A stretch of 64,000 nucleotides of DNA, taken from Candidatus Aenigmatarchaeota archaeon. Its GTDB lineage: Archaea > Aenigmatarchaeota > Aenigmatarchaeia > Aenigmatarchaeales > Aenigmatarchaeaceae. The translations under genes were made by a program, and so were the position numbers. Positions 3,920 to 24,969 of this stretch are shown here, piece after piece. Position 1 is the stretch's first letter; the number at the start of each line of letters is the position of its first letter. Under the pieces are notes generated by a model. The model saw nothing but the letters and a program-made list of their open reading frames with translations. It was not told the DNA's origin and searched no databases. The stretch spans positions 947-64,946 of the forward strand of contig JBHIDO010000001.1 of the NCBI GenBank assembly GCA_046760145.1, written 5' to 3'.

Positions 3920-4379
3920 TTAATCTACCTAACATTTTTAATATCCCATCAATTATAGCTTCTGGTCTTGGTGGACAGCCTGGAACATACATGTCTACTG
4001 GTATTATTTTATCTACAGGACCAACAAAATTGTATGAATCTTTAAATGGTCCACCTGTTATTGCACAAGAACCAATTGCTATAACTTTTTTATTATCTAC
4101 CATTTGTTTATAAATAGTTTTTAATCTTTCTTTATTCTGACGATTAACAATTCCACTTGTTAACAAAATATCAGCATGTCTTGCACTTGATTTTAAAAGT
4201 ATTCCAAATCTTTCAATATCATATCTTGGAGTTAACAGAGCATATATCTCTAAAATACAACCATTACATCCTCCGACATCAAAATTACAAACCCATGGAG
4301 ATTTTTTTAATTCTTTCACAAACCAACACCAGCTATTAAAATCATTGTTGTTAAAATTGCTAAAGTTATCAATAACCAT
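3876..4379 (-). CDS. [NiFe] hydrogenase small subunit, NuoB-like (MbhJ/EchC)
   Basis: CNGCILEI ... GSCAITGGPF ... VPGCPPRPE: the four Cys of the proximal 4Fe-4S cluster of NuoB/small-subunit family. 167 aa. Confidence 0.8.
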   Translation of the reverse strand: MVIDNFSNFNNNDFNSWCWFVKELKKSPWVCNFDVGGCNGCILEIYALLTPRYDIERFGILLKSSARHADILLTSGIVNRQNKERLKTIYKQMVDNKKVIAIGSCAITGGPFKDSYNFVGPVDKIIPVDMYVPGCPPRPEAIIDGILKMLGRLNEKDKTKSKKIKRS

Positions 4380-4483
4380 TTTTTATTGAAAAAATGTCCA
4401 TATCTTTTAGGTAATATTATCTTTTCAGGATCTTTTTCCCCACCCATGTAAATATCCATTATATGCTTTTCTTCTTTTTTCAT
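4316..4483 (-). CDS. Small single-TM protein in hydrogenase operon (start assumed at internal MKKEEK; ATGA overlap with upstream gene)
   Basis: ORF with C-terminal hydrophobic helix (WLLITLAILTTMILIAGVGL). Position in operon only. Confidence 0.3.
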   Translation of the reverse strand: MKKEEKHIMDIYMGGEKDPEKIILPKRYGHFFNKKWLLITLAILTTMILIAGVGL

Positions 4484-5358
4484 TAAATCACATTGAATAA
4501 TATAAACCATTGTATTTGTGGAAATATTCCTAAAATTAAACAAAAAAATGCTAATATACCATTAATTAGCGTAACTGGTCTTGGTATAAACTTTTCTTTA
4601 CCTTCTCCAACTAATAAAACATAAACAATTTTATAATACATCACAAACAAAATCAAAGTTGCAAAAATTCCAAATATAGCTATTGCTGGAGCAAGAAAGA
4701 AGCTTGTTGTAAGGAAAATCCATTTAGGAACAAACATATTAAAAACCGGTAAACCGGCTAGAGATAAGCATGCTATAGTTACAAAAATATCATTCCATTT
4801 ATTAGTGAAGTAAGACCCTTTTAATTGATATATGTATGTTTTATTTCTTGCAAATATTCCTATTGCTAGGAATAATACTAAACCTGGAAAAATATAATTA
4901 AAAATTTGAATTGTACCAAGTATTTGTAATTCTCCAAATAATTTAGCAAGAGATAGATCTGCAATTATAAATAATATCTGTATTACTGTTGATAGTAAAA
5001 GAAATTCTTTTAATTTACTCTGAAATATAGCAAATATTGCTAATACAGAAACAAATACTAAAGAAACCAAAGTTATAAAAAAATAAAAATTGAGTTCGAA
5101 GAGAAATAAATTAAAAAAGAACCAAGAAAGTAAAATTGTTGTAAATATGTTAAAGGATATGAATTTTCCAAAACTTATCTTTTTGTAGAAGAATAAAAAG
5201 AATAAAATTAAAATTGCAATATACCAGTAAAAAATTGTTAAAATTGAAAATAAAACCAATAAAGCTAATAAAATTAAATTTTTCTTATCATAAAAGAATG
5301 AATATATTGAAATAGAAATAGTTGCTATCAAAATAAGTGTTATAAATAAAAGCATCAT
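4483..5358 (-). CDS. Polytopic membrane subunit of hydrogenase operon (short NuoL/MbhH-like?)
   Basis: 291 aa, very hydrophobic, first gene of operon. Too short for a full antiporter-type subunit; assignment by position. Confidence 0.4.
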   Translation of the reverse strand: MMLLFITLILIATISISIYSFFYDKKNLILLALLVLFSILTIFYWYIAILILFFLFFYKKISFGKFISFNIFTTILLSWFFFNLFLFELNFYFFITLVSLVFVSVLAIFAIFQSKLKEFLLLSTVIQILFIIADLSLAKLFGELQILGTIQIFNYIFPGLVLFLAIGIFARNKTYIYQLKGSYFTNKWNDIFVTIACLSLAGLPVFNMFVPKWIFLTTSFFLAPAIAIFGIFATLILFVMYYKIVYVLLVGEGKEKFIPRPVTLINGILAFFCLILGIFPQIQWFILFNVI

Positions 5359-7323: not shown

Positions 7324-8274
7324 ATGACCGAAATAGCTGATTTACCAGGTGTTGGAGAAAAAACAGGTGAAAAGCTGAAAAAAGCTGGCTATGTTGACAT
7401 GATGGCAATTGCAGCTGCATCACCAATGGAATTAGCAGAAGCTGCAGAAATAGGGGAAGTAACTGCTGCTAAAATAATTAATGCTGCAAGAGAAGTTTTA
7501 AATATTGGTTTTGAGAGCGCATCTCAAGTTATGGAGAGGAGATTAAAAATAGGAAGAATTACAACATGTAGTGAAAATTTGAATGAGTTATTGGGGGGTG
7601 GAGTAGAAACTGCAGCTGTTACAGAATTTCATGGAGCATTTGGTTCTAGTAAAACACAGGTAGCACATCAATTAGCTGTCAACGTCCAATTACCAAAAGA
7701 AAGGGGTGGTTTAGAAGGTGGTTGTTTATTCATAGATGCAGAAGCAACATTCAGACCAGAAAGAATAAAGCAAATGGCTGAGGCTCTTGAATTAGATGTG
7801 GAAAAGGTTTTGAATAATATCACGGTTGGTAGAGTTTATAATTCTGATCATCAAATTATATTGGTCGAAAAGGCAGGAGATATAATTAGAGAAAAAAACG
7901 TTAAATTATTAGTGATTGATTCAGTGACATCATTATTTAGAGCAGATTATTTGGGAAGAGGAACATTAGCTACTAGACAACAAAAACTAAATAGACACTT
8001 ACATACATTACAAAGACTAGGAGATGTTTATAACATTGCGGTTTATATAACAAATCAGGTTATGGCAAGACCAGATATTTTATTCGGAGATCCAACTGCT
8101 CCAATTGGTGGTCATATCATAGGACACTTCTCAACTTATAGGATTTATGTTAGAAAGTCTAAAGGCGATACAAGAATTGCAAGAATGATTGATTCTCCAA
8201 ATCTTCCAGAAGGAGAATGTGTATTTTCTATCAAACCTGAAGGAATTAGAGACCCCAATGGGAAAAAGAGATAA
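7324..8274 (+). CDS. radA: DNA repair and recombination protein RadA
   Basis: N-terminal HhH ([17 protein letters not shown]), Walker [10 protein letters not shown], RecA-fold core, 316 aa. Confidence 0.9.
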
Positions 8275-9508: not shown

Positions 9509-10594
9509 CTAACTCTCAACAAACAAAGTCTTAACCTTAGGTGTCAAAGCATACATATAGGCCTTACCACGAGCTTCTCTTTGGACAAATCCTTCTAGCA
9601 TCATCCTTTTCAAAATATTATTAACAGACCTTATTGCATGACCTTTGGATTTATATCCTTTCATTTCTAATTCTTCAACAATAGCTGTTGGTGTTAACCA
9701 GTCTCTTCTAGATAATAAGTCTATTATTTTTCTTTGCTTATAAGGTAAATCTCTTAATTTTTCTTCAGAAGGTGGTTTTGGTGAAAAAGTAACTACTGGT
9801 TCTTCAACTCTCACTTTTTTTTCAGGAATTTCCCTTAGTTCTTCTATATCAAACTCATCAATCATATCCCTTTTATTTTCTAAAGCTCTTGAAACAAGCT
9901 TATCGCATAATTTTATTACTTCTCTTGGAAATCCACCTGTTCTCTGATAAATTTTATCTAGAGCCTGGACTGTGAACGGAACAGTACCTCTTCCACCAAC
10001 ATCAGCTATTCTTTTTTGAATTAAATCTCTTACATCTTCTTGATTTAAAGATATTAGAGATATACGGGTGGTTATTCTTTGATTCAAAGTTTCAATCTCC
10101 TTTAATTTTTCTTCTAGAATAGGCATTCCAGCAATAATTAAACTAACATTATCTATTTGATCAACCAAAACTCTTAACCATTCTAAAACTTCTCTGTTAG
10201 TTTCATGAGCTTCATCTAATAGTAAAATTAATTGGTTTCCTTTTAGTTTTTTATTTACATATGCTGGTAAATTGAAAAGTGAGGGATATTTTCTAAAAAT
10301 TCTTTCCCAGAAACTTAAAGGAAAATTTTCAGTAAAAATATTTATAAAATAATCTGGTTTTTCAGGTGGTTTGCTTATGTATAAAGCATGTTGGTGGGCA
10401 TTCATTCTCAACCATTTTAAAAACGTTGTCTTACCAGAACCAGTATGACCTGTTATTAGAGCTATTTTATGCTTATTTTCTATGTGTTTTAAAGAAGCTC
10501 TTACTTGCTCTTCATAACCAGTAAATAATTTAGGATCAATTTTTAAAGTAAAGGGATTTTCTTTCCACCCCCATTTTTGGTATCCTTCTGCCAT
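9509..10594 (-). CDS. Divergent Orc1/Cdc6-like AAA+ ATPase with C-terminal winged helix
   Basis: Walker A GHTGSGKTT, Walker B LLLDEAHE. N-terminal DPKLFTGYEEQ positionally analogous to the Cdc6 P..L.HRE.Q segment. C-terminal wH (KQRKIIDLLSRRDWLTPTAIVEEL...). Adjacent to iteron array 11360-11640. Confidence 0.5.
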   Translation of the reverse strand: MAEGYQKWGWKENPFTLKIDPKLFTGYEEQVRASLKHIENKHKIALITGHTGSGKTTFLKWLRMNAHQHALYISKPPEKPDYFINIFTENFPLSFWERIFRKYPSLFNLPAYVNKKLKGNQLILLLDEAHETNREVLEWLRVLVDQIDNVSLIIAGMPILEEKLKEIETLNQRITTRISLISLNQEDVRDLIQKRIADVGGRGTVPFTVQALDKIYQRTGGFPREVIKLCDKLVSRALENKRDMIDEFDIEELREIPEKKVRVEEPVVTFSPKPPSEEKLRDLPYKQRKIIDLLSRRDWLTPTAIVEELEMKGYKSKGHAIRSVNNILKRMMLEGFVQREARGKAYMYALTPKVKTLFVES

Positions 10595-11353
10595 TTACTC
10601 ACCAAAGTTAAAAAGAGAGTATTTTTCTCTTCCCTTAGTATCTTTATAAATAACTTCAATCAAGCGCGTTTTTTCTTCCATTTTAGGAATAAATTCCGAT
10701 GGAATTGGTATCCATCTTAGCTTTTTCCATTTCTTAAACTGAGCTTTTTTCTTCCTTGAAATTAACTTATTCTCACAAAAGAGACGGGTAACCCAACAAT
10801 TTCTACCTGTAACTCTATATTCCCAGCTAGAATCATTACCAGTTTTACCAATAAACCCCACCTTGAAAAAATTCTTAACTGTTTCAAGAATTTTTCTATC
10901 ATCTTGTGCAAGAGAAAACATTGGGTATTTATATTTTCCGGAACTGCATGTAAATGATCCTTCTGCTTCAATAAAACCAATTAACCAGTCAGAAAAATTA
11001 ACTTCTTTATAATTTGCTTCTCTTTTATTGAACGGTATCCGTTTTAATTGTTTCCAATTTTCAAATTGATTAGTTCTCCAGTCTAAAATCAGTCTACCTT
11101 CACAAAAATCTCGAATAGGCCAGCAGTTTCGACCACATACATTGTAAAACCATCCATGTTTTTTATCTGAATAAATAATAGAACCAACGTTGAAAAATTT
11201 CTTTAAAAACAACAAACTCATGATATCTTGTTGAAATACAACAAAGCTAGGATATTTTTTGTTATTTGAACAAAAAGAACCATCACCTTCTATGAAACCA
11301 AGTATCCAATCTGGTGAAACTTGTAAATCTTCTGATTTAAATTTCATAAACAT
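10595..11353 (-). mobile_element. Free-standing double-motif LAGLIDADG homing endonuclease
   Basis: Two LAGLIDADG motifs (ILGFIEGDGSF and LIGFIEAEGSF) about 100 aa apart. 252 aa. Own ATG, no upstream coding sequence. Same reading frame as the downstream Orc-like gene, separated by one TAA. Confidence 0.8.
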
Positions 11354-11359
11354 AATAAA

Positions 11360-11640
11360 TATTCATGTGAACATCTATTTAAGCTTTTCTCATAAATGTG
11401 TGAAGATGTGAAGAAAATGTGAAGAATTTTTGTGAAGATGTGAATTTTATATGAAGAATGTGTGAAGATGTGAAAATGTTAGACTTTATTTCATATATTC
11501 ACATGAAGATGACATGAAGGTAACGTGAAGATGTGAATATCGTTAGTGTTATAATATGAACTTCATGTGAATATGTTTCGTTTGTGATATTATTGTGTGA
11601 CTTTTATGAGAACTTCATGTGAAGTTTTCGTGAAGCAAAT
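11360..11640. repeat. Iteron array: at least 4 full copies of GTGAAGATGTGAA plus about 6 half-sites (CATGTGAA / ATGAAGA / GAACTTCATGTGAA); candidate replication-origin recognition boxes
   Basis: Direct reading gives TGTGAAGATGTGAAG at about 11398, 11431, 11461 and 11524. Also CATGAAGATGACATGAAGG and GAACTTCATGTGAA twice. Non-coding, AT-rich, upstream of an Orc-like gene. Confidence 0.6.
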
Positions 11641-11790
11641 ATGAACTTCAAAAATTCTTAAAAACCTTTCAAAACAGCTATTTTTACGGCAAAAGACGTA
11701 AAGATTTTAAAAATAATTCGTCTATTGTCTACAAATATAATATCTAATAATCTTTATAAGTATATGCTACTAGTATAGTAATAGATACCT

Positions 11791-12093
11791 ATGAAAAAAA
11801 GAAAAATCAAAAGAAACAGAGGAGTTAGAAAGGGTTTTGACCCTAAAAAACTAGCTAAAATATGGAACGTATTAGCAGAAGCAGGAGATTGGTTACATGT
11901 AGCTGATATTTCTAGAAGAACAGGTATTCACGAAGCCACAGTAAGGTGGTATCTAGATCACTATCTTCAAAAGGCTATTGATGAAGAAAGAATCGTACCT
12001 AATATTAGATTAAGACTAGTTAAATTAAAACCTGGTGTTGATCTTAAATCGTATATAAAGGCTCTAAAAATGATTGAAAAGGTTAAAACATAA
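11791..12093 (+). CDS. Small basic winged-helix/HTH DNA-binding protein (hypothetical)
   Basis: Lys/Arg-rich N-terminus followed by WNVLAEAGDWLHVADISRRTGIHEATVRWYL (HTH-like). 100 aa. Confidence 0.4.
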   Translation: MKKRKIKRNRGVRKGFDPKKLAKIWNVLAEAGDWLHVADISRRTGIHEATVRWYLDHYLQKAIDEERIVPNIRLRLVKLKPGVDLKSYIKALKMIEKVKT

Positions 12094-12428: not shown

Positions 12429-12985
12429 GGTTTTGATATATGTTTGTGTTCTTTTACACCATCATGTAAAAGTTTTTTATCTTTTGTTATAAGTATAAGA
12501 CCTAATTTTTTACATATATCTAAATGAATAACATTATTTACCTTGAACCTAAATCTATTTTTTTTGATCATATTATAAGTATCTTCATCTATGTTTATCT
12601 CTTTTATAGTTTTCATACCTAAATATTTCTCTAAATATTGCCACATTCTATCAATATCAGAAGGAGTTATGTGATCAAAATCAGTTCTAAGCCTTCTTGC
12701 AACTTCACATTTGGTGAGAACAGAACTATAAATCTTGTTTTTGTATGCAGGATTTTTAAAACGCTTTATAATGCGCGGTATCATAAATTTTCTTTTCTTT
12801 TTAAAGCTTTTAGCTATCTCCTTGAAGAAACCATATACTATATTTGTTTCTAAATAAACAGATTTCATATAACCACTTAATAATGAAAAAAATAAACTTA
12901 TAAAAATTTCTATTTTTAAAAAGAAGTTTTTAAAGATAAACGTTAAGTGTCTAAGCTTTCTATAAATAATATTATCACAAGTCAA
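12425..12985 (-). CDS. Hypothetical protein; C-terminal segment PIN-like (true start probably internal)
   Basis: C-terminus VIHLDICKKLGLILITKDKKL resembles the last PIN-domain motif. N-terminal about 60 aa is hydrophobic and low-complexity, probably not translated. Confidence 0.3.
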   Translation of the reverse strand: MTCDNIIYRKLRHLTFIFKNFFLKIEIFISLFFSLLSGYMKSVYLETNIVYGFFKEIAKSFKKKRKFMIPRIIKRFKNPAYKNKIYSSVLTKCEVARRLRTDFDHITPSDIDRMWQYLEKYLGMKTIKEINIDEDTYNMIKKNRFRFKVNNVIHLDICKKLGLILITKDKKLLHDGVKEHKHISKP

Positions 12986-13322
12986 TCCTCTTGGCTATGA
13001 TCTCGATTTGATCCTTATATTCTGAAACTCTTCCCAAAACTGTTATTTCATCACCATTTTCTAATTCATAGGCTTCTTCTATATTTGAATTTTTAAATAC
13101 TACTACCTGAATTTCTCCGGTATTATCAGCCACCTTTAGAAAAACATGACCATCTTTACTAACATAAACAGATGTAACCATTCCAGAGATTCTCTGTAAC
13201 TGTCCTATTTTAACATCTGATATCTTGACTGTTTCTATTGAAGACCTAGTTAAAAAGAATAAAGATACTATTCCTATGATAGCAATAACAATCGATGCTT
13301 TTAATAATTTCTTGCTTTCCAT
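12975..13322 (-). CDS. Membrane-anchored OB-fold (tRNA_anti-like) protein
   Basis: N-terminal signal anchor (LLKASIVIAIIGIVSLFFL) followed by OB-fold-like GMVTSVYVSKDGHVFLKVADNTGEIQVVVF. Confidence 0.45.
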   Translation of the reverse strand: MESKKLLKASIVIAIIGIVSLFFLTRSSIETVKISDVKIGQLQRISGMVTSVYVSKDGHVFLKVADNTGEIQVVVFKNSNIEEAYELENGDEITVLGRVSEYKDQIEIIAKRIDL

Positions 13323-20561: not shown

Positions 20562-21710
20562 TTACTTTAAATCATCCATTGTCAATACTTTGATTCTTTG
20601 TGGTGATCTAACTTTAACACTCCTCATTCCAACCATATATTTAATTCCATTATGAGAACCAAAGTTAACCATTCTTTGGTCTATATCACCATCTATTACA
20701 ACTGCTTTTGCATCCAATCTTTTCATTGTATTAAATATTTCTTTTATAGGAACCTTACCAAGAATTTCCATTTTTTCATTTAGAAAACAAGCAGCTCTTG
20801 TTCCAATCAAATCTTCCAAGATTGTTTTGAAAATTTTTTTCTTTTCCTCATCTATGTAAATTTTTCTCTTTCTTAATTTTTTAACATCTTTAATTTGATT
20901 AACTGGTACCTTTTCTCTTAAACATTTAAAAATTTCTTTTTTTGTTAATTCTTCTACTTCTTCACCACCTAAAGCTCTTGCAACAAAATCTATTTCACAA
21001 GTTGCCAATAATTCTTTTAATATCAAGTCTCCTCCCCTATCACCATCAAGAAATGCTGTTATTGACTTTTCCTTTGATAAGTCTATAATGGTTTGTGGTA
21101 CAGAGGTTCCTTCTATCGCAATTACGTTTTTAATACCATGCTTTAAAAGGTTAATAACATCTGCTCTTCCTTCTACTACTATAATTGAGTCATATGCATC
21201 TAAATTAGGACCTGCTGGTAATCCATTATAATTTTCAATTTCAGAACCCCTTACTGCTTCTTTAATTTGTTCAGATATTTCTTGGGTGTCTGGTACACCC
21301 TCATCAAACATCCTTTCTAATAATTCTTTTGCCCTATCAACAACATATTTTCTTTTCTCAATTCTAACATCATCTATTTTTTCTGTATAAATCTTAGCAT
21401 TAGAAGGTCCGATTCTTTCAATGGTTTCAATACAAGCCGCAATTAAGGATGTTTGAGAAGCATCAAGACTAGAAGGTATGATAATTTCTCCTGATGTTTT
21501 TCCATTTTCATTTTTTATTTCTACATCTATTCTTCCTACTCTTCCTGTTCTCTGCAATTCCCTTAAATCCATATCAGGACCTAATAAACCTTCTGTTTGT
21601 CCAAACACTGCTCCTATTACATCTGGTTTTTCTACAGTTCCTTCTGCTTCAAATCTAGCGTATATTATGTATTTTGAAGTGGTTTGCGCCAATTTACTCA
21701 TTAATATCAC
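20562..21710 (-). CDS. dnaG: Archaeal DnaG-type primase (Toprim)
   Basis: N-terminal KYIIYARFEAEGTVEKPDVIGAVFGQTEGLLG is the archaeal DnaG signature. Toprim IVVEGRADVINLL...DGDRGGD. Confidence 0.85.
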   Translation of the reverse strand: MILMSKLAQTTSKYIIYARFEAEGTVEKPDVIGAVFGQTEGLLGPDMDLRELQRTGRVGRIDVEIKNENGKTSGEIIIPSSLDASQTSLIAACIETIERIGPSNAKIYTEKIDDVRIEKRKYVVDRAKELLERMFDEGVPDTQEISEQIKEAVRGSEIENYNGLPAGPNLDAYDSIIVVEGRADVINLLKHGIKNVIAIEGTSVPQTIIDLSKEKSITAFLDGDRGGDLILKELLATCEIDFVARALGGEEVEELTKKEIFKCLREKVPVNQIKDVKKLRKRKIYIDEEKKKIFKTILEDLIGTRAACFLNEKMEILGKVPIKEIFNTMKRLDAKAVVIDGDIDQRMVNFGSHNGIKYMVGMRSVKVRSPQRIKVLTMDDLK

Positions 21711-23449: not shown

Positions 23450-23459
23450 TTCCTCCCCT

Positions 23460-23778
23460 TCATTTCTTATCGAAGTTGAATTCGAAAAATAAAATATTTT
23501 TATTAATAAATTAATAACATTGTTATAAGAAATAAAGGTAAATAAGTTACTTATATTTCTTATGAAACCTTTAAAGGAAATAAAAGGGTGTGTTTTTTAT
23601 AAAAATAACAGTGTTATAAAAATAAATTTCTTTACATGTGAATATTTTACGAATAAAATTTAATTTTCCATGTGAAATAAAGGGGTTAACGTGAAGATAA
23701 TTATAAATATATTCATTCTTATTAAAAATCTTACTTCAAAAGAAATAAAGGTTTCCATAAGAAACTGAGGTATTAATA
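23460..23778. promoter_or_regulatory. Candidate oriC / origin-recognition-box region upstream of orc1/cdc6
   Basis: About 320 bp non-coding, very AT-rich. Contains CCATGTGAAATAAAGGGGTTAACGTGAAGATAA (23668-23700), which aligns to the archaeal ORB (ttCCAGTGGAAACgAAAGGGGT). Four GAAATAAAGG repeats (about 23531, 23578, 23674, 23743). Mini-ORB-like TACATGTGAATATTTTAC. Confidence 0.5.
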
Positions 23779-24969
23779 ATGAAAAAAATAGAAAAAATTT
23801 TTAATAAATTTCTTGATTCAAAACCCATATTTATAAATCGAGAAGCTCTTTCAATTTCATTTACACCAGAAGATATACCACATAGAGAAGCTCAAATAAA
23901 TGAGTTAGGAAGAATTCTGGCTCCGGCCTTAAAAAACGGAAAGCCTAGCAATGTATTCATATATGGAAGATGCGGAACAGGAAAAACTTTAATTTCTAAA
24001 TTGGTAGGATCAGAACTAGAAAAAATTAGTCAGTCTAATGGTCAAACCATTAAAGTTATTTATGTTAATTGTAAAATGAAAAAATCAGCTGATACAGAAT
24101 ATAGATTATTGGCTGGTTTAGCTAAGAAATTTGGAAAACAAGTTCCATTTACAGGATTGCCAACAGATCAAATTTATAATGCTTTTTTTGAAAGTTTGGA
24201 CAAAAGAAAACAAACTCTTATTTTAATTATAGATGAGATTGATGCTTTAGTTCAAAAAACAGGAGACGAAATTCTTTATAATCTAACAAGGATAAACCAA
24301 GATCTTAAAAACTCTAAATTATCTATTATAGGGATAACAAATAATCTGAGTTTTATTGAATCTTTAGATCCAAGGGTAAGAAGTTCCTTAGGTGAAGAAG
24401 AACTAATATTTCCACCTTATAATGCTTTACAATTACAAGATATTTTAAGGCAAAGATCTTCTATTGCTTTTGTATCTGGAGTTTTAGAAGAAGGAGTAAT
24501 TGAAAAATGTGCTGCTTTGGCTGCTCAGGAGCATGGAGATGCTAGAAGAGCTTTAGAATTGTTAAGGGTTGCTGGAGAACTAGCTGAGAGGAATGCAGAT
24601 GAAAAAATAACAACAGAGCATGTTGACCTAGCTCAGAAAAAAATTGATATAGATAGTGTTTTAGAAACAGTAAAAACCCAACCAAAACAAAGCCAGGCTG
24701 TTTTATATGCAATAATACAACTAGATAAAAAGAATATAGAAACAAGTGATGTAATTAATAAATATCAAGAAATTTGTAAGCAACATGGTTTAAGGGTATT
24801 AACACAAAGAAGAGTTTCAGATTTAATATCAGAACTATATTTATTTGGTATAATTGATTCAAAGATAATATCTAAGGGGAGATATGGGAGGACAAGAGTT
24901 ATAAATTTAAATTTAACTAATAATGTTAAGAAAAAACTAAAAAATCTTCTTAACCAAATATTCTTATGA
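23779..24969 (+). CDS. orc1: Orc1/Cdc6 replication initiator
   Basis: FTPEDIPHREAQINEL (Cdc6 N-terminal motif), Walker A GRCGTGKT, Walker B IIDEID, C-terminal winged helix. 396 aa. GAGGT RBS upstream. Confidence 0.9.
   Translation: MKKIEKIFNKFLDSKPIFINREALSISFTPEDIPHREAQINELGRILAPALKNGKPSNVFIYGRCGTGKTLISKLVGSELEKISQSNGQTIKVIYVNCKMKKSADTEYRLLAGLAKKFGKQVPFTGLPTDQIYNAFFESLDKRKQTLILIIDEIDALVQKTGDEILYNLTRINQDLKNSKLSIIGITNNLSFIESLDPRVRSSLGEEELIFPPYNALQLQDILRQRSSIAFVSGVLEEGVIEKCAALAAQEHGDARRALELLRVAGELAERNADEKITTEHVDLAQKKIDIDSVLETVKTQPKQSQAVLYAIIQLDKKNIETSDVINKYQEICKQHGLRVLTQRRVSDLISELYLFGIIDSKIISKGRYGRTRVINLNLTNNVKKKLKNLLNQIFL

What the first reader, a model, noticed from the sequence alone, without database searches (positions are those of the whole stretch)
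9509..11353. Homing endonuclease and Orc-like ATPase in the same frame, separated by a single TAA
The 252-aa LAGLIDADG ORF (two motifs) ends with TAA at 10595-10597. The Orc-like ORF starts at the very next codon (ATG 10594) in the same minus-strand frame (both ends give coordinate mod 3 = 1). The gene is not an intein: it has its own ATG, no extein upstream, and a stop. This is either a free-standing HEase that invaded the origin-proximal site, or a stop-codon read-through or sequencing artefact fusing a nuclease to an initiator-like ATPase.
Basis: seen in the sequence. Interest (0 to 1): 0.6.

Follow-up and report, generated by a model that had tools for sequence, protein, structure and literature searches.

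The report
Homing endonuclease gene parked before ATPase
A selfish "homing" nuclease gene has inserted itself exactly between the promoter and the start codon of a conserved ATPase gene in a tiny uncultured archaeon; relatives of it sit in the same slot in other lineages, so the shared reading frame with the ATPase is a coincidence rather than a fusion.

Summary
On the minus strand, a 252-aa two-motif LAGLIDADG ORF (10595-11353) ends in TAA. The next codon is the ATG of a 361-aa ATPase (9509-10594), in the same frame.

The nuclease is a free-standing homing endonuclease gene (HEG). It belongs to a small family: 10 full-length clusters plus one half-sized remnant, 40-60% identical. All 9 members with genomic context sit in the same slot in Aenigmatarchaeota: after the TATA box and last TTCACGTGAATAT box, and before the ATPase ATG. 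Most ATPase loci are empty.

- **Mobility:** there are empty/filled allele pairs, and one mosaic pair has near-identical flanks around a 60%-identical HEG.
- **No fusion:** the gap from HEG stop to ATPase ATG varies from -8 to +12 nt, and 4 of 8 junctions are in frame. All three stop codons occur. The ATPase has its own GGTGA ribosome-binding site.
- **Not Orc1/Cdc6:** the ATPase is an ExeA/MuB-like AAA_22 protein with a C-terminal winged helix. The canonical orc1/cdc6 gene, with a likely origin upstream, lies 12 kb away (23779-24969).

I rate this a new member of a known kind, of moderate interest. The helically phased TTCAC array upstream is unexplained.

The parts
10595..11353 (-). Free-standing two-domain LAGLIDADG homing endonuclease gene (252 aa). 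NCBI calls a 250-aa product from the second ATG at 11347. The stop is TAA at 10595-10597.
   Evidence: ORF. Pfam PF00961 at E=3.9e-17 in 2 stretches. AF2 model has pLDDT 83 with two alpha-beta-beta-alpha-beta-beta-alpha domains. Foldseek top hits are I-SmaMI, I-OnuI, I-AniI and I-GzeII. PDB profile hits reach E=1e-16.
11273..11308 (-). LAGLIDADG motif 1, WILGFIEGDGSF, with the catalytic Asp retained.
   Evidence: Alignment A3: the acidic residue is kept in all 11 family members.
10952..10987 (-). LAGLIDADG motif 2, WLIGFIEAEGSF, with the catalytic Glu retained.
   Evidence: Alignment A3. The position aligns to the catalytic Glu of I-GzeII/I-OnuI-type enzymes (alignment).
10599..10603 (-). GGTGA Shine-Dalgarno-like motif inside the last codons of the HEG, 4 nt before the ATPase ATG. 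It would support translational coupling or re-initiation.
   Evidence: Sequence. The same GGTGA/GTGAT motif, 4-6 nt before the ATG, marks operon-internal genes throughout the window.
9509..10594 (-). Conserved Aenigmatarchaeota AAA_22 (ExeA/MuB-like) ATPase with a C-terminal winged helix (361 aa). This is the host gene whose leader is the homing site.
   Evidence: Pfam AAA_22 at 5.6e-15. The search returned 693 homolog clusters; the 120 listed are 59-72% identical and unfused. AF2 pLDDT 86.7. Best PDB sequence hit is MuB. Best fold hits are Orc1/Cdc6. NCBIfam best hit is ExeA-like TIGR03015, below its cutoff.
11376..11383 (-). TATA box (CTTAAATA) of the host ATPase promoter, now driving the HEG. 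It lies 22 or 28 nt upstream of the two candidate HEG ATGs, which suggests a leaderless-type start.
   Evidence: The same aaagYTTAAATA element sits at the same distance in empty loci L001, L002, L004 and L028 and in filled loci L005 and L019.
11359..11371 (-). Promoter-proximal box TTCACATGAATAT. It forms the left half of the inferred homing site, and the HEG starts 5 nt after it.
   Evidence: Empty sites read CTTCACGTGAATAT-(2-4 nt)-GTGAA(T/G)(A/G)TT-ATG. Filled sites read the same box, then an A/T-rich stretch, then ATG(HEG).
11359..11640 (.). Array of TTCAC / TTCACATGAA half-sites and palindromes upstream of the promoter. It is the conserved cis element next to the homing site; its function is unknown.
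   Evidence: 15 TTCAC/GTGAA sites fall in 11251-11750, against a window mean of 0.4 per 250 nt. Repeat families D1-D3. In related loci the 10-mer occurs only in this intergenic region. Half-site spacing peaks at 11, 21-22, 31-34, 40-43 and 51-53 nt.
11791..12093 (+). Divergently transcribed small winged-helix protein (100 aa). It is a syntenic neighbour on the far side of the box array and a candidate box-binding protein.
   Evidence: Weak HTH_IclR hit at 1.4e-3. A gene of 91-107 aa occupies the same position in L001-L004, L019 and L028.

Best explanation
The 252-aa ORF is a free-standing, monomeric (two-domain) LAGLIDADG homing endonuclease gene. It is lodged in the 5' leader of a conserved Aenigmatarchaeota AAA_22-winged-helix ATPase gene, immediately after that gene's TATA box and last TTCACGTGAATAT box and immediately before its start codon.

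Shown:
- The HEG family is specific to this one slot.
- Most alleles of the host locus are empty.
- Closely related empty and filled alleles exist.
- HEG cassettes have been exchanged between nearly identical host backgrounds.
- The ORFs are under purifying selection with both catalytic acidic residues kept.
- One locus carries a half-deleted remnant.

Inferred:
- The enzyme cuts the empty site, roughly CTTCACGTGAATAT-nn-GTGAAKRTT-ATG. Recombinational repair from a filled allele then copies the HEG in, which splits the target and makes the allele immune.
- The HEG is transcribed from the captured host promoter as the first, leaderless-type cistron.
- The ATPase is translated as the second cistron from the GGTGA Shine-Dalgarno that the HEG's 3' end provides, by tight coupling at TAAATG.

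The single in-frame TAA is incidental. Two separate proteins are made.
For: **Site specificity.** Every close family member with genomic context lies between the box-rich region with its TATA box and the ATPase ATG. These are the window, L005, L006, L007/8, L009/10, L019/20, L021-23, L030 and L031. In L006 the contig ends before the ATPase, so only the upstream side of the slot is seen. The 78 more distant LAGLIDADG loci from the metagenome scan have neither the ATPase nor the boxes.

**Sporadic distribution.** The top 120 ATPase homologs are unfused, 358-413 aa long. The six distinct loci inspected (L001, L002/3, L004, L011, L028, L029) are empty but syntenic. By contrast there are only 10 full-length HEG clusters plus 1 half-sized one among 5.8 billion proteins.

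**Empty/filled pairs.**
- L028 versus L019: about 90% nucleotide identity on both flanks. Ten nucleotides of the empty site are replaced by the 341-nt insert.
- L029 versus L007, from the same sample series: 55 of 55 nt identical from the ATG onward.

**Mobility.** In L021 versus L031 the flanks are 96-98% identical. This covers the first ~45 and last ~15 nt of the HEG, the spacer and ~125 nt of the ATPase. The HEG interior is only about 65-70% identical in DNA and 60% in protein, with indels.

**Function retained.**
- pN of 0.26-0.43 is below pS of 0.60-0.87 in all 28 pairs.
- The catalytic D/E is kept in both motifs of all members.
- The model is a confident LHE fold.
- HEG GC content is 30.6%, against 31.0% for the ATPase.

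**Degeneration stage.** A 111-aa half-HEG occupies the same slot in L019/L020.

**No fusion.** Spacers run from -8 to +12 nt, three different stop codons are used, and the ATPase has its own Shine-Dalgarno.
Against: - No cleavage activity or target site has been tested. The homing site is inferred from insertion boundaries that are blurred over about 10 nt, presumably by co-conversion.
- All HEG pairs are at most 60% identical and synonymous sites are saturated. Long-term vertical persistence under host-level selection (domestication) is therefore not excluded by the dN/dS result alone.
- How DNA would move between cells of these DPANN archaea is unknown.
- Most filled loci are contigs of only 1-2 kb, so presence/absence within a single population was not shown from reads.
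- The promoter and transcription start are inferred from sequence only.
Confidence: 0.85

Rival explanations
1. Domesticated endonuclease. The LAGLIDADG protein is no longer selfish and serves the host, for example as a DNA-binding regulator or nuclease acting on the adjacent TTCAC box array or on the ATPase's function. It would be co-expressed with the ATPase as an operon partner.
For: - Purifying selection holds across very old divergences, with pS saturated.
- Composition is fully ameliorated to the host.
- It is always co-transcribed with the same ATPase, next to a protein-binding-type array.
Against: - It is present in only a small minority of otherwise syntenic loci, and absent from close relatives of filled loci.
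- The mosaic cassette exchange and the half-deleted copy fit the HEG life cycle of invasion, decay and loss.
- The catalytic residues are intact rather than degenerate, unlike typical domesticated maturase-like LHEs.
Confidence: 0.08
2. Stop-codon read-through or recoding yields a nuclease-ATPase fusion protein. Alternatively, a sequencing error created the TAA in what is really one gene.
For: In the window, a single in-frame TAA is followed directly by ATG. Three other loci also have an in-frame 12-nt spacer.
Against: - 4 of 8 junctions are out of frame or overlapping (+2, +2, +5, -8 nt), and TAA, TGA and TAG are all used.
- TAA is the main stop of this genome, 29 of 56 ORFs.
- None of the top 120 ATPase homologs carries an N-terminal nuclease domain, and none of the HEase homologs carries an ATPase.
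- The ATPase N-terminus is conserved from its own Met.
- The junction was assembled independently.
Confidence: 0.03
3. The HEG is carried by a self-splicing element, such as an intein, a group I intron or an archaeal bulge-helix-bulge intron, rather than being free-standing.
For: Most known archaeal LAGLIDADG enzymes are encoded in inteins or rRNA introns (established knowledge; also PMC13619312 and PMC3943268).
Against: - The ORF lies upstream of an intact host ORF, not inside it, and has its own ATG and stop.
- No Hint/intein domain was found by Pfam.
- No intron RNA family was found by Rfam, either at gathering thresholds for the whole window or at E<=1 for 10300-11850.
Confidence: 0.02

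Closest known systems
Free-standing homing endonuclease genes of T4-like phages (seg and mob genes; 'intronless homing')
   Same: They are stand-alone HEGs inserted between host genes. They spread by cleavage of the HEG-less allele and recombinational repair, with co-conversion of flanks. They depend on neighbouring host transcription signals, and their distribution among related genomes is sporadic (PMC2988022 and PMC2790892 listed; PMC13619312).
   Different: The phage genes are GIY-YIG or HNH enzymes in phage genomes and spread during co-infection. Here the enzyme is a LAGLIDADG protein in a cellular DPANN archaeal chromosome. It sits precisely between the promoter and the start codon of one conserved gene, and the route of cell-to-cell DNA transfer is unknown.
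Monomeric two-domain LAGLIDADG meganucleases of the I-OnuI / I-SmaMI / I-AniI / I-GzeII group (Pfam PF00961)
   Same: Same fold and domain duplication, and the same catalytic acidic residues at the ends of the two LAGLIDADG helices. Profile E-values are 1e-16 to 1e-10, and Foldseek E is about 1e-12 with TM about 0.6.
   Different: Those enzymes are encoded inside mitochondrial group I introns, and some double as maturases. This one has no intron, is 17-23% identical to them, and is somewhat shorter (205-260 aa).
Archaeal Orc1/Cdc6 initiators next to ORB-containing origins
   Same: The downstream ATPase has the same domain order: AAA+ base, lid, then a C-terminal winged helix. Orc1/Cdc6 structures are its best fold matches (1w5t, 2qby, 1fnn, 2v1u). 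It also sits beside a dense array of short dyad repeats upstream of its own gene.
   Different: It has no Cdc6_C, Cdc6_lid or TIGR02928 signature. Its sequence relatives are ExeA/MuB/PEP-CTERM-type AAA_22 ATPases. A disordered linker of about 25 residues precedes the winged helix. The genome has a bona fide orc1/cdc6 gene with ORB-like repeats 12 kb away.
ExeA / MuB / TniB-type AAA_22 ATPases
   Same: The Pfam AAA_22 match is above threshold. The N-terminal NPF motif, the Walker A/B motifs and the GGFPR sensor motif are present. The best solved sequence relative is phage Mu MuB (E=3e-4), and the AAA core superposes with TMt 0.68.
   Different: It has a C-terminal winged helix instead of the peptidoglycan-binding, TPR or transposition-partner contexts. 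It is a conserved, syntenic gene, apparently single-copy, next to radA, rpa and histone genes in Aenigmatarchaeota.

Membership tests
LAGLIDADG homing endonuclease (PF00961), monomeric type | Two LAGLIDADG motifs, each ending in a catalytic Asp or Glu | tested here: met
   The motifs are GFIEGDGSF and GFIEAEGSF. The acidic residues are conserved in all family members.
LAGLIDADG homing endonuclease (PF00961), monomeric type | Tandem alpha-beta-beta-alpha-beta-beta-alpha domains forming a DNA-binding saddle | tested here: met
   AF2 pLDDT is 83 and pTM 0.79, with the expected order of secondary-structure elements. The top 50 Foldseek hits are all LHEs.
LAGLIDADG homing endonuclease (PF00961), monomeric type | Site-specific cleavage of the HEG-less allele | not testable with these tools
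   This needs an in-vitro cleavage assay on empty-site DNA.
Mobile (homing) genetic element | A fixed insertion site, with presence/absence polymorphism among related genomes | tested here: met
   9 of 9 members are in one slot (L006 supported on the upstream side only, because its contig is cut). Empty alleles L028 and L029 are close relatives of filled L019 and L007.
Mobile (homing) genetic element | An evolutionary history discordant with the flanking host DNA | tested here: met
   The L021/L031 mosaic has flanks 96-98% identical and a HEG interior about 65-70% identical.
Intein | In-frame insertion within a host protein, with Hint splicing blocks and no stop codon of its own | tested here: not met
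   The ORF has its own ATG and stop and lies upstream of a complete host ORF. Pfam finds no Hint or intein domain.
Group I intron-encoded HEG | A surrounding ribozyme structure | tested here: not met
   Rfam gives no intron match at gathering thresholds or at E<=1.
Orc1/Cdc6 replication initiator (for the downstream ATPase) | Cdc6_lid plus Cdc6_C winged-helix signatures, or TIGR02928 | tested here: not met
   There are no such hits. The weak ORC-CDC6-like PF24389 match scores 19.8 bits against a cutoff of 27. The same search finds these signatures in the window's real orc1/cdc6 at 23779-24969.
Orc1/Cdc6 replication initiator (for the downstream ATPase) | AAA+ base, lid and C-terminal winged-helix architecture | tested here: met
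   The AF2 model shows this architecture, and the top Foldseek hits are 1w5t, 2qby, 1fnn and 2v1u. The architecture is shared with RuvB and NB-ARC proteins, so it is not diagnostic.
Orc1/Cdc6 replication initiator (for the downstream ATPase) | Adjacent origin with ORB repeats flanking an unwinding element | tested here: inconclusive
   A phased TTCACGTGAA array is present but is not canonical ORB. It is absent upstream of the 42%-identical ortholog in L015. The skew minimum lies at the other locus.
AAA_22 / ExeA-MuB-like ATPases (for the downstream ATPase) | A Pfam PF13401 match above the gathering score | tested here: met
   The match scores 56.2 bits against a cutoff of 27. Remote relatives are ExeA-type fusions.

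The most novel reading that the evidence does not exclude
The AAA_22-winged-helix ATPase and its helically phased TTCACGTGAA array may form a previously undescribed chromosomal DNA-organising module of Aenigmatarchaeota. It could be a second, non-Orc initiator/origin pair or a centromere-like partition complex. On this reading the HEG family has specialised on the one invariant protein-binding box at the module's promoter, and its expression is wired to the module's autoregulation.
Probability: 0.2. Interest if true: 0.7.

Novelty: new member of a known kind. Interest (0 to 1): 0.42.

Why it matters
- It documents a site-specific, apparently active family of free-standing LAGLIDADG homing endonuclease genes in the chromosomes of DPANN archaea. 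Known archaeal LAGLIDADG enzymes are mostly encoded in inteins or rRNA introns.
- The case is unusually clean. It has a defined slot between promoter and start codon, empty and filled alleles, a decayed copy and a recombinant mosaic. Together these imply genetic exchange and homologous recombination among these uncultured, reduced-genome archaea.
- It offers candidate meganucleases whose target of about 25 bp can be inferred.
- It corrects a tempting mis-annotation: the neighbouring gene is not the replication initiator.
- It also draws attention to a conserved ATPase with a phased repeat array whose function is unknown.

Tried and rejected
- **Read-through or fusion.** Rejected on frame, spacer and stop-codon variability, and on the ATPase having its own Shine-Dalgarno.
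- **Intein or intron carrier.** Rejected.
- **'The ATPase is Orc1/Cdc6'.** Rejected at family level. A real orc1/cdc6 was found in the window.
- **Genome-contig scan with the ATPase alignment.** One search pattern was too general, so it returned only 8 loci. These were useful only in showing that the 42-45% identical orthologs (L012-L015) lack the box array.
- **Viral-contig scan with the HEase family.** No close relatives, at most 27% identity, so there is no evidence for a viral source.
- **Single-domain LAGLIDADG relatives (P0149 and others).** They lie in unrelated, unannotated contexts and are not part of this element.
- **Sigma-70 promoter scan.** Uninformative for an archaeon.
- **GC skew within 64 kb.** Dominated by gene orientation. 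It points to about 22-23 kb, not to 11 kb.
- **Literature searches.** They found no description of this HEG family or of this ATPase and array.
Full report
**1. Observation**

The minus strand of 9509-11353 carries two abutting ORFs. ORF 10595..11353 is 252 aa and ORF 9509..10594 is 361 aa. They are joined as ...GGT GAG TAA ATG GCA..., so they share a frame and are separated by a single TAA (10595-10597).

Pfam assigns the first ORF to LAGLIDADG_1 (PF00961, E=3.9e-17, two stretches). It assigns the second to AAA_22 (PF13401, E=5.6e-15), with weak winged-helix hits at its C-terminus. The window is 100% identical in both proteins to a Candidatus Aenigmatarchaeota MAG contig of 69,432 nt. GC content is about 28%.

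**2. The host locus**

The search for ATPase homologs returned 693 clusters. The 120 best are 59-72% identical and 358-413 aa long, most of them 359-365 aa. Almost all are from Aenigmatarchaeota and none is fused to a nuclease.

Loci encoding them are syntenic with the window. The order is nrdD/nrdR, LigT, an OB-fold gene, a small divergent winged-helix gene, an intergenic region of about 480 bp, the ATPase, an AAA_17 kinase, a PRC-barrel gene, radA, rpa and a histone gene.

In these loci the intergenic region is packed with CTTCACGTGAA(C/T) palindromes and TTCAC half-sites. The 10-mer TTCACRTGAA occurs nowhere else in the 7-9 kb fetched around each gene.

In the window the variant is TTCACATGAA / TTCACATCTTCACA. 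Fifteen half-sites fall in 11251-11750, against a window mean of 0.4 per 250 nt.

The region ends with a TATA box (aaagTTTAAATA), one last box CTTCACGTGAATAT, then GTGAA(T/G)(A/G)TT and the ATPase ATG.

**3. The HEG family and its slot**

A first search found only 5 relatives of the nuclease, at 43-52% identity. A profile search raised this to 10 full-length clusters plus one 111-aa fragment. A scan of JGI metagenome contigs added two loci.

Every member with recoverable DNA context lies in the same place: after the TATA box and last box, and before the ATG of the ATPase. These are the window, L005, L007/8, L009/10, L019/20, L021-23, L030 and L031. L006 has the same upstream side, but its contig ends before the ATPase.

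None of the 78 more distant LAGLIDADG loci from the same scan has the ATPase or the boxes. No close relative occurs in IMG/VR viral contigs.

**4. Empty and filled alleles**

- L028 (empty) and L019 (filled) are about 90% identical in DNA on both flanks. Ten nucleotides of the empty site (GTGAATAT|ATTGTGAAGGTT|ATG) are replaced by a 341-nt insert (GTGAATAT|TTATT-ATG...TAA-TT|ATG).
- L029 (empty) and L007 (filled) come from the same sample series. They are identical over the 55 nt from the ATPase ATG to the contig end.
- The L019/L020 insert is a half-HEG. It keeps domain 1 and the family's C-terminal tail but lacks domain 2, as expected from a deletion between the repeated QFxxWKxLxW segments. 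This is the decay stage of the HEG life cycle.

**5. Direct evidence for mobility**

L021 and L031 were compared along their length.

| Segment | Identity |
|---|---|
| Upstream ~45 nt including the first codons of the HEG | 96-98% |
| Last ~15 nt of the HEG, the 12-nt spacer and ~125 nt of the ATPase gene | 96-98% |
| HEG interior | about 65-70% DNA, 60% protein, with indels |

Synonymous sites inside the HEG are saturated (pS 0.75) while the flanks have hardly diverged. Only recombination that swaps HEG cassettes between near-identical host backgrounds explains this.

**6. The enzyme looks functional**

- Both LAGLIDADG motifs keep their catalytic Asp or Glu in all members.
- The AF2 model is confident (pLDDT 83, pTM 0.79) and shows two alpha-beta-beta-alpha-beta-beta-alpha domains.
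- Its best structural matches are the monomeric meganucleases I-SmaMI, I-OnuI, I-AniI and I-GzeII (sequence profile).
- All 28 pairwise comparisons give pN of 0.26-0.43, well below pS of 0.60-0.87.
- HEG GC content (30.6%) equals that of the ATPase (31.0%), so the gene is an old resident of this AT-rich lineage.

**7. Expression model (inferred)**

The HEG ATG lies 22 nt downstream of the host TATA box, or 28 nt for the second ATG. It has no Shine-Dalgarno, like the first genes of operons in this window.

The ATPase ATG is preceded by GGTGA at 10599-10603, 4 nt upstream. This is the motif and spacing seen before operon-internal genes throughout the window. No terminator-like element separates the two ORFs. 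A hairpin followed by T-rich sequence lies just after the ATPase stop.

The HEG has therefore captured the host promoter and leaves the ATPase as a translationally coupled second cistron.

**8. Read-through or fusion is not supported**

| Locus | Stop-to-ATG distance | In frame? |
|---|---|---|
| window | 0 | yes |
| L007 | +2 | no |
| L019 | +2 | no |
| L005 | +5 | no |
| L009 | +12 | yes |
| L021 | +12 | yes |
| L031 | +12 | yes |
| L030 | -8 (ATGAATGA overlap) | no |

Four of 8 are in frame against 1 in 3 expected, which is not significant. The HEG ends in TAA, TGA or TAG in different loci. The window uses all three as stops: 29, 17 and 10 of 56 ORFs. The ATPase N-terminus is conserved from its own Met.

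**9. The neighbour is not Orc1/Cdc6**

By sequence the ATPase is ExeA/MuB-like:
- Pfam gives AAA_22. The ORC-CDC6-like model scores 19.8 bits against a cutoff of 27.
- The best solved relative is phage Mu MuB, E=3e-4.
- The best NCBIfam hit is the ExeA-like PEP-CTERM ATPase TIGR03015, and there is no TIGR02928 match.
- An exhaustive HMM search of 1.84 billion representatives grades into TPR/Zn-ribbon/PG-binding ExeA-type proteins, none with Cdc6_C.

The AF2 model (pLDDT 86.7) has an AAA+ base and lid, a disordered linker (residues 255-270) and a C-terminal winged helix. Its best Foldseek matches are archaeal Orc1/Cdc6 structures at E of 1e-12 to 1e-9. RuvB, NB-ARC and MuB follow closely. 'Orc-like' thus describes the architecture, not the family.

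The window contains a canonical orc1/cdc6 gene at 23779-24969 (Cdc6_lid 3e-27, Cdc6_C 2e-23). Its AT-rich upstream region (23450-23778) carries ORB-like repeats such as TTTCCATGTGAAATAAAGGGGT. It coincides with the cumulative GC-skew minimum and with a switch in gene orientation at about 22.7 kb. The likely origin is therefore about 12 kb from the HEG.

**10. What remains unexplained**

The TTCAC half-sites of the array are helically phased. Start-to-start spacings peak at 11 nt (40 cases), then 21-22, 31-34, 40-43, 51-53 and 63-64 nt. This points to cooperative protein binding on one face of the DNA.

The 10-bp core equals the centre of the bacterial parS site, which is how the literature search matched it. 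One-mismatch copies occur three times in the orc1/cdc6 upstream region.

The array is absent upstream of the 42%-identical ortholog in a complete 833-kb chromosome (L015). I cannot tell whether it is an operator cluster, a centromere-like site or a second origin.

**11. Comparison with known systems and verdict**

Free-standing HEGs that invade intergenic sites are well known, for example the T4 seg and mob genes (PMC13619312 and PMC3943268; titles). Monomeric LAGLIDADG enzymes are well characterised.

I found no report of a free-standing LAGLIDADG HEG family in DPANN archaea or at this locus.

The finding is a real feature: a new member of a known kind of element, with an unusually complete comparative picture. 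The second (read-through or artefact) is not. The labels 'Orc-like' and 'origin-proximal' do not hold.

Noticed in passing
window 23779-24969 (+) and 23450-23778: A canonical orc1/cdc6 gene (396 aa; Cdc6_lid 3e-27, Cdc6_C 2e-23) has a very AT-rich upstream region of 329 nt. That region holds ORB-like repeats: TTTCCATGTGAAATAAAGGGGT at 23665-23686, GGAAATAAAAGGGT at about 23575, and AAGAAATAAAGGT twice plus inverted copies. The cumulative GC-skew minimum and a minus-to-plus switch in gene orientation fall at about 22.7 kb. This is probably oriC.
   Followed up: partly
window 11359-11640; L001 3640-3990, L004 3630-3990, L029 740-1180 and others: The TTCAC / TTCACGTGAA sites upstream of the ATPase are helically phased. 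Spacings are 11, 21-22, 31-34, 40-43, 51-53 and 63-64 nt. The sites are mostly oriented toward the ATPase gene. There are 14-22 half-sites per intergenic region of about 450 nt.
   Followed up: partly
window 11362-11623; also 23633, 23667, 23686: The 10-bp box core TTCACGTGAA is identical to the centre of the bacterial parS centromere consensus (TGTTTCACGTGAAACA). One-mismatch copies occur three times within 60 nt in the orc1/cdc6 upstream region. This may be coincidence, or it may reflect a shared class of DNA-binding protein.
   Followed up: no
L019 3501-3836, L020 278-613: A 111-aa half-HEG sits in the same slot. It has domain 1 plus the family's C-terminal tail, with domain 2 deleted. It lies upstream of an ATPase that is 93% identical to ATPases at empty sites. 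It is either a decaying copy or a possible homodimeric derivative.
   Followed up: partly
L005 936-950, L007 964-982, L009 1066-1077, L021 1110-1121, L031 971-982: The sequence (A)ATGTGAGAGTT is conserved at or just past the 3' end of the HEG, even though the HEases are only 40-50% identical. In L007 it is coding (NVRV) and in the others it is spacer. It is probably the co-converted 3' boundary and ribosome-binding region carried along with the cassette.
   Followed up: partly
window 11690-11745; L001 3590-3640, L019 3120-3180, L028 410-470: A second conserved motif lies between the divergent winged-helix gene and the box array. It is a short CGTC-N4-GACG-type palindrome (for example ATCGTCAAAAGACGAT, TTACGTCTAATGACGAA) in an AT-rich stretch. 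It may be the operator of the small winged-helix protein or an unwinding element.
   Followed up: no
L024-L027 (gene at 4001-4501): Single-domain LAGLIDADG relatives of 165-200 aa (P0149 and about 25 other clusters) match only one domain of the family. They lie in contigs full of unannotated genes, next to a 1056-aa ORF. This context may be a virus or another mobile element.
   Followed up: no
L015 (CP070662.1, 252463-259518): A complete 833-kb archaeal chromosome carries a 42%-identical ortholog of the ATPase. It is still next to radA- and rpa-like genes, but its upstream region is only 82 nt and has no box array. The array is therefore clade-specific.
   Followed up: partly
window 20562-21710 (-): A 382-aa Toprim-domain protein (DnaG-like) lies about 2 kb from the putative origin region. 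Replication and repair genes (radA 7324-8274, the OB-fold gene 12975-13322, and orc1/cdc6) are concentrated in the first 25 kb of the window.
   Followed up: no
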